A stretch of DNA of 64,000 nt, from the NCBI RefSeq assembly GCF_009914755.1, contig NC_060943.1. One strand, written 5' to 3'. Made by a program: the position numbers and the translations under genes. Origin of the DNA: the human T2T-CHM13v2.0 reference genome, Homo sapiens. The notes beneath the pieces are model-generated. The model did no database searches. It saw only the letters and a program-made list of their open reading frames with translations, and was not told the DNA's origin. Within the stretch, counting starts at the first letter, position 1, and every line of letters starts with the position of its first letter. Below, one piece after another: positions 17,270 to 29,816 of the stretch.

Positions 17270-20200
17270 TGTTTGTTTGTTTGAGATGGAGTCTCACTGT
17301 GTTACCCAGGCTGGAGTGTAATGGTGCGATCTTGGCTCACTGCGACCTCTGCCTCCCAGGTTCAAGTGATTATCCTGCCTCAGTCTCCCAAGTAGCTGGG
17401 ATTACAAGCACCCGCCACCACACCCAGCTAATTTTTGTATTTTTAGTAGAGACGCAGTTTCACCATGTTGTCCAGGCTGGACTCGAACTCCTGACCTCAG
17501 GTGATCCACCCATCTTGGCCTCCAAAAGTGCTGGGATTACAGGCGTGAGCCACCATGCCCAGCCCTGGTGTTGTGTCTACTTTGTAAATGTCATCCAAAG
17601 CTCCTCACTTCTCTCCAGCCCATGGCTCCCACCCTGGTCCAAGCACCAGTATCTCCTGCCCAGACACTGCCCAAGCCTCCTTCCTAGTCTCCTTGGTCTC
17701 CTTCCACTCCTATCCCTGACAGTCAGTGCTCCACAACAGCAACCACAGGGAATTTTTTAATGCCAATATTGACCAACTCTCTCTCCGGAAGACACACCTC
17801 TCACTCTCCAGGGCACCCCATGAGGTCTGGTGTGTGGTTTCAGCTCCTGCCTACTTCCCGGGGCTCCCCTCCCACCCTCCAGCCACACTGATCTGTTTTC
17901 AGCTCCTGACACACCTGATCCTCTTGAGTCTGAGGCTTTATACATTCTGTTCCTTCTGCTTGGAATGCCCTTCCCCGCACTCCCACTGGTTGACTTCTCT
18001 TCATCCCTCAGGCTAAGGATTTGTTTTACTGTTTTTTGTTTGTTTGTTTGTTTTGTTTTGTTTTTAGATGGAGTCGCCCAGGCTGGAGTGCAGTGGTGTG
18101 ATCTCAGCTCACTGCAAGCTCTGCCTCCCGGGTTCACGCCATTCTCCTGCCTCAGCCTCCTGAGTAGCTGGGACTACAGGCACCCGCCACTACGCCTGGC
18201 TAATTTTTTTGTATTTTTAGTAGAGACGGAGTTTCACCATGTTAGCCAGGATGGTCTCGATCTCCTGACCTCGTGATCCACCCACCTTGGCCTCCCAAAG
18301 TGCTGGGATTACAGGAGTGAGCCACTGCACCCGGCCTGTTTTTATTTTTTTAAGATGGTGTCTTGCTCTGTCACCCAGGTTGGAGTGCAGTGGTGCAACC
18401 TCGGCTCACTGCAACCTCCACCTCCCAGGTTCAAACAATTCTGCTCCTGAGTAGCTGGGACTACAGGTGCACCCCACAACTAATTTTTGTATTTTTACTA
18501 GAGACAGGGTTTCACCATGTTGACCAGGCTGGTCTCGAACTCCCGATCTCAAGTGATGGACCGGCCTCAGCCTCCCAAAGTGCTGGGATTACAGGCATCA
18601 GCCACCACAACCAGGCCCTCAGGTTAAGTTTAAATGCCACTTCTTCCAGGTAGTCCTCCCTGAGCCCCCTCGATGTGAGGTCAGGAGCCTCCTCTGGGCT
18701 CCTCTGTTCTTCTCCATCACAGCATGATTACTTTGTCCTGTCTCTGCCTGGTATGATCTGTCTCCACCATCAGCCTGTGGGCACCTCCTTGTGCATGGCT
18801 GTGTGCCCACTGTGTGCCAAGTGCAGGGCCTGGCACACAGTGGGTGCTAACTTAATAAATGCTTTCTGGATAAGGTCAAGAAGGGTTCAGATGGACGAAC
18901 TGCTCTTCCTCTCCTGGGGCCGGCCCCTTTAATCCCCATCAGCCTTCTCACCTATCTGGGACCACGCTGTCTTTTCTCTGTCCCTTAAGCCTCAATGGTG
19001 AACACCACATGGGTACTGGGCTCGACCTCTCCAGGCAACACAAGGCGGCTCGGCAGCGATGGCAGCAATGGGGTACCCGAGAAGCCTCTCCGGATGATAC
19101 CACCACCAAGGGGGCTCACAGGGGCCAAGCCAGAATCCACCAACTCCCAGAACTACTGGAAGAAACCAGAAAGACATGAGCAAGTTCTTGGTCATGGGAC
19201 CTCTCTAGGACCCTGAAGTGCCCTCACCCAGACACCTGGACTGGCCCAGAGAGCTGTATCTCAGTCCTACTCTCCTGAGTGAATTTACCTCTCTGAGCCT
19301 CAGTTTCCTCATCTGTGAAGTAGGGATCTCAAACGTGGGGGGATATAAATAGTGCCTGGTCCAGGCCAGGCGCTGTGGCTCGTGCCTGTAATCCCAGCAC
19401 TTTGGGAGGCCAAGGCGGGAGGATCACCTGAGGTCGGGAGTTTGAGACCAGCCTGACCAACATGGAGAAACCCCACCTCTACTAAAAATACAACATTAGC
19501 CAGGCGTGGTGGTGCATGCCTGTAATTCCAGCTACTCGGGAGGCTGAAGCAGAAGAATCGCTTGAACCTGGGAGGCGGAGGTTGCAGTGAGCCGAGATTA
19601 TGCCATTGCACTCCAGCCTGGGCAACAAGAGTGAAATTCCATCTCAAAAATAAAAAATATAAATAAATAAATAGTGCCTGGTCCAGCCAGGCCCAGTGGC
19701 TCACGCCTGTAATCCCAGCACTTTGGGAGGCTGAGGCAGGCGGATCACGAGGTCAGGAGATCAATACCATCCTGGCTAACATGGTGAGACCCTGTCTCGA
19801 CTAAAAATACAAAAAAATTAGCCGGGCGTGGTGGCGGGCGCCTGTAGTCCCAACTACTCAAGAGGCTGAGGCAGGAGAATAGTGTGAACCCGGGAAGTGG
19901 AGCTTGCAGTGAGCTGAGATCGGGCCACTGCACTCCAGCCTGAGTGACAGAGCGAGACTCCATCTCAAAAAAAAAAAAAAAAACAAGTGCCTGGTCCACA
20001 GTACACATTGCAGAAATATTTATTTATTAACTAATAATAGCATGCTCAGTAGGGCACGGTGGCTCATGCCCATAATCCCAACACTTTGAAAGGGTGGTTT
20101 GACCCCAGGAGTTCTAGACCAGCCTGAGTAAAATAGTGAGACACTAGCTCTACAAAAAATAAACAAAATTAGCCAGGCATCGTGGTGTATGCCTGTAACC

Positions 20201-23200
20201 CCAGCTACTCAGGAGGCTGAGGTGGGAGGACTGCTTCAGCCCAGAAGGTCAAGGCTGTAGTGAGCCAAGATCATGCCACTGTACTTTAGCTTGGGTGACA
20301 GAGTGAGACCCCCTGTATCTCTCTCTCTCTCTTTTTTTTTTTTTTCGAGATGGAGTCTCGCTCTTTCAACCACATCGGAGTGCAGTGGCACAATCTCGCC
20401 TTACTGCAACTTCCATCTCCCAGGTTCAAGTGATTCTCCTGCCTCAGCCTCCTGAGTAGCTGGGATTACAGGTGCCCACCACCACGCCTGGCTAATTTTT
20501 TGGTATTTTTAGTAGAGAGGGGTTTTCACCACGTTGGCCAGGCTGGTCTCGAACTCCTGACCTCAAGTGATCTGCCCACCTTGGCCTCCCAAAGTGTGGG
20601 AATTACAGGTGTGAGCCACTGCGCCCGGCCGAGACCCTGTCTCTAAAAATAAAAATAAATAAAACAGTATGTTTATTTTTATAACATATTATATGCTATA
20701 TAATGCTATTTATTATAATGCTATGCACCATAGTGATATTCTATTGTATATTTTTTCTTACATTTGAGATTCCAATATATTATTTATTAAAATATAAAAG
20801 TAGGGCCCAGCACAATGGCTCATGCCTGTAATCCCAATACTTTGGGAGGCCAAGGCAGGTGGATCACAAGGTCAGGAATTCGACACCAGCCTGGCCAACA
20901 TAGGGAAACCCCATCTCTACTAAAAATACGAAAATTAGCCAGGTGTGGTGGCACACGCCTGTAGTCCCAGCTACTCAGGAGGCTGAGGCAGGAGAATCAC
21001 TTGAACCCGGGAGGCGGAGGCTGCAGTGAGTGGAGACCACACCACTGCACTCCAGCCTGGGTGACAGAGCAAGACCCTGTCTCAAAAAAAAAAAAAAAGT
21101 AAAACAATAAAACATGCAGTAAATAAGCAAATGAATAATAACGATAGTACTAATGGCTAACATTTTCTGCACAATCACCCTGTATAAATGCCGTTCCAAT
21201 AGTACATGGATGGGCTCATGAAGGTATAATGAAGCCATTTAGCACCATTATTTCCATTTAACAAAGGAGGAAATGAAGGCTCAGAGGTTAAGTAACTAGA
21301 GCCCAAGGTTGCAATTCATAAATAAAAGCAATTCTGAGCTTCAGTGCCGAGTTCCTTGAAGGAAGGACTGAATGGGAGAAACTAAATGAGATGCTGTTTC
21401 CAAGCAGGCTCTGGGTAAATGCTGGATACATTTTAAGAACAGGCAGAATCAGTCTGAACGGATGCGTTGGGAGTGTGAGCTCTTCAGCGCAACAGATCTG
21501 GGTTCAATCCAGGCCACGTGGTCCAGGGCAAGCGGCCTCAGTTTGCCCATCTGGGAAATGGAGGCGAAAGGGGTACGGATCCCTCAGAGGTGTTGATGAT
21601 AAAACAATGGGACCCACGTGCGCCAGACACAGGCTGTGTGCTGTCCGCGGTGCTGACCCCAGAATGGGGCACAAAACTGGAACTCACAGCTTTGGGGTAA
21701 GGCGATCAGTGAAGACAAATGTGGAGATGGGAGAGGTGGGGTTCAAAGAGATGGCCCAGTCTTCCCCTACTGTCCTCCTGAGCCTCACCAATGAGCCTAT
21801 CTCCACCACCAGACTGAGCATTAAAACTGGGAAACTGGCCAGGCGCGGTGGCTCACGCCTGTAATCCCAGCACTTTGGGAGGCTGAGGCAGGCGGATCGC
21901 TTAGGGTCAGGAGTTTGAGACCAGCCTGACCAACATGGCAAAACCCTGTCTCTACTAAAAATACAAAAATTAGCCGAGCATGGCGCTTTGCACCTGTAAT
22001 CCCAGCTACTTGGGACGCTGAGGAAGCAGAATTGCTTGAACCCAGGGGGTAGAGGTTGCAGTGGAAAGATCTGGGCAACAGATCTGGGCAACAGCACTCA
22101 GGCTGGAGTGCAATGGTGTGGTCTCTGCTCACTGCAACCTCTGCCTCCTGGGTTCAAGTGATTCTCCTGCCTCAGCCTCCCGAGTAGCTGGGACTACAGA
22201 CACATAGTCCCCATCTCAAAAAATAAAAAAGTAAAAATAAAAATAAAAAAGCTGGGAAACTGCCAGGCATGGTGGCTCATGTCTGTAGTCCCAGCACTTT
22301 GGGAGGTTGAGGCCAAAAGTGAGTTCAAAACCAGCCTGGGCACCCCGTCGCTACCAAACATTTTATAAATTAGCCAGGTGTGGTGGTACATGTGCCTGTA
22401 GTTCCAGCTCCCAAGGAGGCTGAGGCAGGAGGATTGTTTGAGCCCAGGAGGTTGAGACTGCAGTGAGCTATGATTGTGCCACTGCTCTTTAGCCCGGCTT
22501 ACAGAGGGAAACTCTGTCAAAAAAAAAAAAAAAAAACGGGGCTGGGCACGGTGGCTCATGCCTATAATCCCAGCACTTTGGGAAGCCGAGGTGGATGGAT
22601 CACAAGATCAAGAGATCGAGACCAGCCCGGCCAACATGCTGAAACCCCATCTGTACTGAAAATACAAAAAAGTTAGCTGTGCCTGGTGGTGCGCACCTGT
22701 AGTCCCAGCTACTCAGCAGGCTGAGGCAGGAGAATCGCTTGAACCTGGGAGGCAGAGGTTGCAGTGAGCCGAGATCATGCCACTGCACTCCAGCCTGGCA
22801 ACAGAGCGAGACTACGTCTCAAAAAAAAATGGGGAAACTGAGGTCCAAGACCATGCTGCTAATCAGGACCAGAGCCAGGGCAAAGTGGGGTGGGAGGAAG
22901 AGGGTGCGGAGAACGGATGTGAGTTGAACTTGAACTTCTGTGTGTGTAAGGGATGCAGCATAGCTCATTTCCTTGCCTATGAGTGGAGGGCCCTCTGACT
23001 CGTGTTGTGGAGGAAGACATCAAAGCTTGGAGAGAAAATGACCTGCTTGCTGGGAGTCACACAGCTGGGGGCTTGAGCCACGCTCAGATCTCATCCTTCT
23101 AGGACTGTTCCCCGCATTTGAGCACAACTTGTCCCCACCCTTTCCCAGGGGCACCTGAAATTTAAGGCAGAAATGCAAGTGCTCTACAAGAGGCCTCCCT

Positions 23201-29680: not shown

Positions 29681-29755
29681 GCTCTGGGTATTTCTCAGTA
29701 GAGGGTCTCTGGGATCTCCCCACCATGGCCTGGGCCACCCCCACCCCCTACTCAC

Positions 29756-29816
29756 TTCACTCAGCAGGAAGGAGAGTGTTGTCCTGCTGTGCCTCATGCT
29801 GCTGGCATCTGTGGCC
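29756..29816 (-). other. PDE4C: Start-codon exon of the ancestral super-long PDE4C isoform ([17 protein letters not shown] at 29797)
   Basis: atttctgcag| acceptor, 14 codons, GAA|gtgagt phase-0 donor; resembles recalled mouse MRRSGTALSFLWTE and the 14-codon start exons of PDE4B1/PDE4D7. Confidence 0.8.

What the first reader, a model, noticed from the sequence alone, without database searches (positions are those of the whole stretch)
18952..29816. PDE4C has lost its super-long isoform here: intact start exon plus a multiply disabled second exon
Seen: a 14-codon ATG exon ([14 protein letters not shown]|gtgagt) and a 204-nt exon-like island at 19155-18952 with good splice sites. The island reads *FWELVDSGLAPVSPLGGGIIRRGFSGTPLLPSLPSRL...HVVFTIEA*GT... 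Its lesions are a TAG at the first codon (avoidable via the NAGNAG acceptor), a TAA at 18987-18985, and a phase-0 end where phase 2 is needed to join exon 4434. Recalled knowledge: mouse Pde4c starts MRRSGTALSFLWTERVREPVDSGVAPVSPLGGGVILRRFSGTLLLPPLSSRL...HVVFTIGTQGT, and PDE4B1/PDE4D7 have the same short start exon followed by a LPPL exon. Inference: isoform-level pseudogenisation, so the reference mouse PDE4C N-terminus has no working counterpart here. This matters for mouse-to-human PDE4C studies.
Basis: partly seen in the sequence, partly recalled or inferred. Interest (0 to 1): 0.75.

Follow-up and report, generated by a model that had tools for sequence, protein, structure and literature searches.

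The report
Broken ancient PDE4C front-end exon
The human PDE4C gene still carries, and still splices, an exon that encodes an ancient front end of this cAMP-degrading enzyme in turtles and many mammals, but two stop codons and a frameshift block it here, so humans likely lack a PDE4C form that many other species, probably including rodent models, keep.

Summary
Confirmed. The 14-codon start exon (29797-29756) and the 204-nt exon (19155-18952) are orthologous to a 14+69-residue PDE4C N-terminus found whole in 17 of 23 named records (owl monkey, carnivores, bats, mole, elephant shrew, rodents, turtles). In this human genome the second exon has a TAG at codon 1, a TAA at 18987 and a 2-nt deletion near 18970-18968; no alternative donor rescues it. 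The matching modules of PDE4A, PDE4B and PDE4D are open in the same genome. RefSeq lists the exon as spliced, so it most likely survives as a 5' untranslated exon; this is isoform loss, not gene loss. 'Super-long' is a misnomer (about 714 aa). No named mouse or catarrhine sequence was retrieved, so the mouse claim is only indirectly supported and the loss is dated only to after the split from owl monkey. Side findings: the deletion brings a weak ATG (19010) into frame with the enzyme; the PDE4C2 start Met is shared only with owl monkey; one unnamed record fuses a CIST1-like membrane protein to PDE4C through this exon. Not found in print in ten searches, but key older papers were not held.

The parts
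29756..29797 (-). 14-codon start exon (coding part) of the ancestral PDE4C isoform; open, phase-0 donor; 2 human-only changes at conserved positions
29756..29816 (-). Predicted full 61-nt exon with AG acceptor; holds an out-of-frame ATG at 29808 (4-codon uORF); not in the RefSeq table
   Evidence: boundary is inferred
18952..19155 (-). Disabled second exon, 204 nt (206 nt inferred for most mammals); annotated as an exon of a non-selected RefSeq transcript
   Evidence: hub table
19153..19155 (-). TAG at the first codon; skippable by the NAGNAG acceptor (the owl-monkey model lacks this residue)
19078..19092 (-). RRGFS, degenerate counterpart of the RR-x-S motif (RRFS in 33 of 43 records); aligns with the PDE4D7 Ser42 PKA motif; Gly shared with owl monkey
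19008..19010 (-). ATG in weak context, in frame with the enzyme body because of the deletion (would give 20 new residues, 651 aa)
18985..18987 (-). TAA premature stop (Gln in owl monkey, Arg in most mammals)
18968..18970 (-). Best position of the 2-nt deletion that shifts the frame
18952..18954 (-). TAG closing the unshifted frame at the exon end (consequence of the deletion)
4243..4434 (-). First common coding exon (FDLENG ... UCR1); phase-2 acceptor
4356..4358 (-). ATG of Met107, the start of 606-aa PDE4C2; Met in only 1 of 27 non-human records (owl monkey)
30255..30284 (-). Annotated first exon upstream of the start exon; one of two possible donors to the disabled exon
   Evidence: hub table
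32396..32556 (-). CIST1 transmembrane exon, also listed in PDE4C transcripts; ends in phase 0 of the CIST1 frame; the other possible donor
   Evidence: hub table

Best explanation
These two exons are the remains of a two-exon PDE4C N-terminus that is open in turtles and many mammals and is blocked in this human genome by two stop codons and a 2-nt deletion, so the second exon likely survives only as a spliced 5' untranslated exon and this enzyme form is likely not made. Shown: orthology, the lesions, the phase mismatch, no rescuing donor, and open sister modules in PDE4A, B and D. Inferred: a ribosome starting at 29797 stops after 14 codons (or 69 with the NAGNAG acceptor); protein from such transcripts would start downstream at Met1 of PDE4C1 (15286), Met107 of PDE4C2 (4358) or weakly at 19010. 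Inferred: constraint was already loosening in the simian ancestor (PKA-type motif degraded and Met107 gained, both shared with owl monkey), and the TAA and the deletion came after the split from owl monkey.
For: Word-index searches gave 25 records with the exon; 17 of the 23 named ones join the start exon to it and run into FDLENG. The HMM search gave 24 hits, 19 with the exon and 5 spurious. Most mammals have 69 residues between start exon and FDLENG, i.e. 206 nt; human has 204, and the last 7 residues match owl monkey 4 of 7 in the shifted frame against 1 of 7 unshifted. No GT near the exon end gives phase 2 except three poor ones upstream of the TAA (2-4 of 9 matches to the U1 consensus). 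Same genome: PDE4B 14 codons + 239 nt, PDE4D 14 codons + 230 nt, PDE4A 16 codons + 206 nt, all open, phase 0 in and phase 2 out. Human-only amino-acid changes: 9 of 74 informative sites in the relic against 7 of 342 in the enzyme body (Fisher p=4.5e-4); owl monkey 4 of 74 against 9 of 342 (p=0.26). UniProt's three human sequences are 712, 606 and 680 aa (PMC11820465), matching the other exons of the window.
Against: No RNA, ribosome-profiling or protein data were available. The direct human-versus-owl-monkey contrast in the relic (9 vs 4) is not significant (p=0.27), and N-termini evolve faster than the body anyway. Orthologs are mostly predicted models. Only one genome (CHM13) was read, so fixation in humans is untested. 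No catarrhine or named mouse record was retrieved, and clustering can hide them. Sequence similarity of the PDE4C module to PDE4D's is weak (16-178 of 1000 shuffles as good), to PDE4A's and PDE4B's modest (0-14 of 1000); paralogy rests largely on position and phase.
Confidence: 0.86

Rival explanations
1. The exon is not dead but recoded: the deletion and a new ATG at 19010 give a human-lineage PDE4C long form of 651 aa with a new 20-residue N-terminus.
For: ATG 19010 is open to the end of the exons in the window when 18952 splices to 4434. None of 43 records has a residue at this codon that could supply the ATG, so it is a human-lineage gain. The exon is annotated as spliced.
Against: Weak context (C at -3, T at +4). 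If the exon splices to 15495 instead, this ATG gives a 171-codon dead-end frame. No such isoform among the three UniProt sequences. The hub table does not say which exons are joined.
Confidence: 0.1
2. The disabled exons are kept by selection as a regulatory leader (short uORFs or NMD trigger) that tunes PDE4C1/PDE4C2 output.
For: Both splice sites remain as good as those of the coding exons by a crude count; RefSeq includes the exon; disabled exons in alternative transcripts have been proposed as regulatory (PMC2718932, abstract).
Against: The change rate fits simple decay; splice sites can persist without selection; no expression data. Compatible with the best explanation rather than exclusive.
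Confidence: 0.15
3. The ancestral N-terminus is still made by NAGNAG skipping plus stop read-through or an alternative donor.
For: The first TAG is skippable; 55 open codons follow.
Against: TAA then a frameshift must both be bypassed; phase-2 donors upstream of the TAA match only 2-4 of 9.
Confidence: 0.02
4. The lesions are private to CHM13 or polymorphic, and other humans have an open exon.
For: Only this assembly was read.
Against: Three separate lesions plus 9 human-only substitutions; no human protein with this N-terminus in four searches or among UniProt's three sequences.
Confidence: 0.03

Closest known systems
Pseudogenic exons (Morais and Harrison 2009, PMC2718932; abstract seen)
   Same: Exon disabled by frameshift and premature stops, near the 5' end of a working gene, included in alternative transcripts.
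   Different: That survey concerns duplicated exons found by likeness to a parent exon; this one is a single-copy ancestral exon (one significant match in the genome), lost by lineage, like a unitary pseudogene at isoform level.
PDE4D7 N-terminus (PMC4346272; passages seen)
   Same: 14-codon start exon plus phase 0/2 second exon; RR-x-S motif followed by LPPL; Ser42 falls in the second exon.
   Different: Open in human; inhibitory PKA phosphorylation is shown for PDE4D7 only. The PDE4C motif is untested and is degraded in human and owl monkey.
PDE4A8 and PDE4B1 N-termini (two-exon N-termini per PMC2929239; matching the names to the fetched exons is recalled)
   Same: Same place upstream of the UCR1 exon, same phases; PDE4A second exon is 206 nt; start exons begin with similar basic/serine residues.
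   Different: Both open in human; sequence similarity to the PDE4C module is modest.
Human PDE4C1, C2, C3 (PMC2929239, PMC11820465)
   Same: Same enzyme body with UCR1 and UCR2.
   Different: Other first exons (15495-15045; 8545-8377) or internal Met107. The evolutionary survey lists only C1 and C3 as conserved PDE4C long forms and reports the C1 exon as not intact in mouse; in the parts read it does not mention this module.

Membership tests
Disabled (pseudogenic) exon of a live gene | Homology to a coding exon that is open elsewhere | tested here: met
Disabled (pseudogenic) exon of a live gene | Premature stop or frameshift | tested here: met
   TAG, TAA and 2-nt deletion
Disabled (pseudogenic) exon of a live gene | Host gene still coding | tested here: met
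   362 open codons over the ten common exons in the window
Disabled (pseudogenic) exon of a live gene | Relaxed constraint | tested here: inconclusive
   9/74 vs 7/342, p=4.5e-4, but 9 vs 4 against owl monkey p=0.27; protein level only
Disabled (pseudogenic) exon of a live gene | No protein made in the ancestral frame | not testable with these tools
   needs ribosome profiling or proteomics
Duplicated pseudogenic exon (Morais and Harrison sense) | A parent exon copy in the same genome | tested here: not met
   1 significant match of 6 listed, itself
PDE4A8/B1/D7-type two-exon N-terminus | Short ATG exon with phase-0 donor | tested here: met
   14 codons in C, B, D; 16 in A
PDE4A8/B1/D7-type two-exon N-terminus | Second exon phase 0 in, phase 2 out, joined to the UCR1 exon | tested here: met
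   met in orthologs (69 residues) and paralogs (206, 239, 230 nt); broken in human PDE4C
PDE4A8/B1/D7-type two-exon N-terminus | Sequence similarity among the modules | tested here: inconclusive
   A-B-D strong (0/1000); C vs A or B 0-14/1000; C vs D 16-178/1000
PDE4A8/B1/D7-type two-exon N-terminus | PKA phosphorylation of the N-terminal motif | not testable with these tools
   motif present in 33 of 43 records; function shown only for PDE4D7

The most novel reading that the evidence does not exclude
In amniotes with the exon intact, read-through splicing from the upstream gene CIST1 enters PDE4C in frame through this exon and makes a single-pass membrane protein with a Ser/Thr-rich outside part and a full PDE4C enzyme inside; the human lesions closed the only in-frame door, while the read-through RNA persists. 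Basis: unnamed record P0044 joins a CIST1-like transmembrane segment exactly at the CIST1 exon end to the PDE4C second exon; RefSeq lists CIST1 exons in human PDE4C transcripts; in human the CIST1 frame stops at all 7 entry routes tested.
Probability: 0.12. Interest if true: 0.75.

Novelty: new member of a known kind. Interest (0 to 1): 0.42.

Why it matters
PDE4 N-termini direct where each isoform sits in the cell (PMC4346272, passage seen), and PDE4 enzymes are drug targets. If the loss is fixed, human PDE4C is the only one of the four human PDE4 genes without this module, including a candidate PKA site like the inhibitory Ser42 of PDE4D7. Since the PDE4C1 exon is reported not intact in mouse (PMC2929239), mouse and human may have lost opposite isoforms and share only the C3-type N-terminus, which bears on reading rodent PDE4C localisation or antibody work. 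The effect is limited: PDE4C is the least studied member (recalled) and the enzyme body is unaffected.

Tried and rejected
Pfam: 0 families for the relic peptide or the single UCR1a exon. Search for 30-97-aa relatives of the human peptide, meant to date the TAA in primates: no candidate. ESM Atlas: best score 0.78 for the owl-monkey N-terminus and no usable hit for P0044; leads only. The PDE4C profile found the paralog exons only weakly (PDE4B E=0.057, PDE4D E=3.2 among 5023 ORFs, PDE4A second exon not at all), so they were delimited by a splice/phase scan in regions chosen from recalled positions. In one search one of 12 rows (chinchilla) was mis-cut; it was parsed correctly from then on and the gap scan was not repeated. 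Chance match, processed copy and duplicated exon were rejected. Papers not held: the PDE4A8 paper and PMC1573369. The supplements of PMC2929239 could not be read and may list rodent PDE4C variants with this N-terminus.
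Full report
Observation. The window is human chr19 with PDE4C on the minus strand (hub table). The 14-codon exon at 29797-29756 and the 204-nt exon at 19155-18952 are as described. The second exon begins with TAG behind a NAGNAG acceptor, is open for 55 codons, has TAA at 18987-18985 and ends in phase 0, whereas exon 4434-4243 needs phase 2. 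The unshifted frame ends in one more TAG at 18954-18952. RefSeq lists 18952-19155 as an exon of a non-selected PDE4C transcript; it does not list the start exon.

Orthologs. The 55-residue peptide found 15 proteins among 108 candidates; the owl-monkey N-terminus found 22 among 129; together 25 records, 23 named. In 17 of the 23 a 14-residue start is joined to the exon and runs into FDLENG: owl monkey, cats, sea lion, mole, elephant shrew, three bats, ground squirrel, chinchilla and two turtles. An HMM search of 1.84 billion unnamed representatives gave 24 hits, 19 real and 5 repeats or unrelated. Back against the window, owl monkey aligns at 86% over 56 residues (E=2e-27), cat 74%, turtle 49%; the start exon is the top hit for three short queries. 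The only primate is owl monkey. A search for short relatives found none.

Lesions. Most mammals have 69 residues here (206 nt). A scan of gap positions against 12 orthologs (one mis-cut) puts a 2-nt deletion at about 18970-18968; the shifted tail matches owl monkey at 4 of 7 residues, the unshifted at 1 of 7. The owl-monkey model lacks the first residue of the exon, which fits use of the second AG, and has Gln at the human TAA. No good donor restores the phase. Human-only changes stand at 9 of 74 informative sites against 7 of 342 in the body (p=4.5e-4); owl monkey shows 4 of 74 against 9 of 342 (p=0.26); the direct 9-versus-4 contrast is not significant (p=0.27). Several changes look like CpG decay (Arg to Trp TGG, Ser to Leu TTG, Arg to His CAC), an inference without ortholog DNA.

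Paralogs. After locating the four UCR1 exons I fetched upstream regions. PDE4B has 14 codons plus 239 nt, PDE4D 14 codons plus 230 nt, PDE4A 16 codons plus 206 nt, all open with phase 0 in and phase 2 out. The PDE4D module is PDE4D7, since it holds the LVRRLSCR motif at 37-44 given in PMC4346272; the names A8 and B1 are recalled and fit the two-exon statement in PMC2929239. Similarity of the PDE4C module to the others is modest to weak. The motif RRFS is present in 33 of 43 records; human and owl monkey have RGFS.

How it likely works now. In simulated transcripts the old start gives 14 codons, or 69 with the NAGNAG acceptor. Open frames into the enzyme start at 15286 (PDE4C1) if exon 15495-15045 follows, or at 19010 (weak context) and 4358 if exon 4434 follows. 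Met at 4358 is Met107, the start of 606-aa PDE4C2 (PMC11820465), and is present in only 1 of 27 non-human records, owl monkey. I infer that a simian internal start just ahead of UCR1, with the other first exons, made the old N-terminus dispensable, and that it then decayed. The order of events is inferred from one outgroup primate. The lost form would be about 714 aa, an ordinary long form.

A side lead. Unnamed P0044 (463 aa) has a hydrophobic N-terminus, a Ser-rich region and a transmembrane segment similar to human CIST1 exon 32556-32396 (E=1e-10; 0 of 2000 shuffles), joined exactly at that exon's end to the PDE4C second exon, then a 63-nt cassette whose acceptor also exists in human (8439) and the UCR1 exons. 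The CIST1 frame is 657 nt long at that point, phase 0, and in human it stops at all 7 routes tested. It is one record, incomplete at its end, possibly a fused gene model or a partly spliced RNA, and phase agreement has a one-in-three chance; hence probability 0.12.

Literature. Ten searches showed no report of this loss: 0 papers for PDE4C with catarrhine, loss and exon, 0 for the pseudoexon query, and none of the 25 listed of 195 held PDE4C. Seen: PMC2929239 abstract, 12 passages and parts 2-3 of 6 of the main section (supplements unreadable); passages only of PMC11820465, PMC4346272, PMC7460819, PMC6433792, PMC12565116 and PMC10707411; abstract and one 503-character supplement of PMC2718932. 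The PDE4A8 paper was not held, and the 1990s PDE4C cloning and gene-structure papers (recalled) were not seen, so the point may be in print.

Verdict. Real, correctly read, and a new case of a known kind of event: loss of one ancient isoform in a live gene. Interest 0.42.

Noticed in passing
window 8377-8439 (-): An internal acceptor (CTCTTCAG|G) in the first exon of the selected transcript defines a 63-nt phase-2/phase-2 cassette; record P0044 uses the matching segment between the second exon and the UCR1 exon.
   Followed up: partly
P0036 against window 19187-18973: This unnamed mammal-like record switches frame near 19110-19101, and P0027, P0034, P0035 have decayed motifs: the module may have decayed independently in other lineages.
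   Followed up: partly
window 15045-15495 (-): Two of the three frames are open across the whole 451-nt PDE4C1 exon; the desman model P0010 runs from the second exon through the 5' part of this exon into the PDE4C1 frame, possibly a prediction artefact.
   Followed up: no
window 32396-37460 (-): CIST1 exons appear in PDE4C transcripts with the short 98-nt form of exon 34160-34257, which breaks the CIST1 frame after 33 codons.
   Followed up: partly
window 30425-31328: A RefSeq enhancer lies just upstream of the annotated first exon 30284-30255 (hub table), so the old promoter region may still be active while the ATG exon is skipped.
   Followed up: no
L011 8401-8448: The PDE4A start exon has 16 codons rather than 14.
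   Followed up: yes
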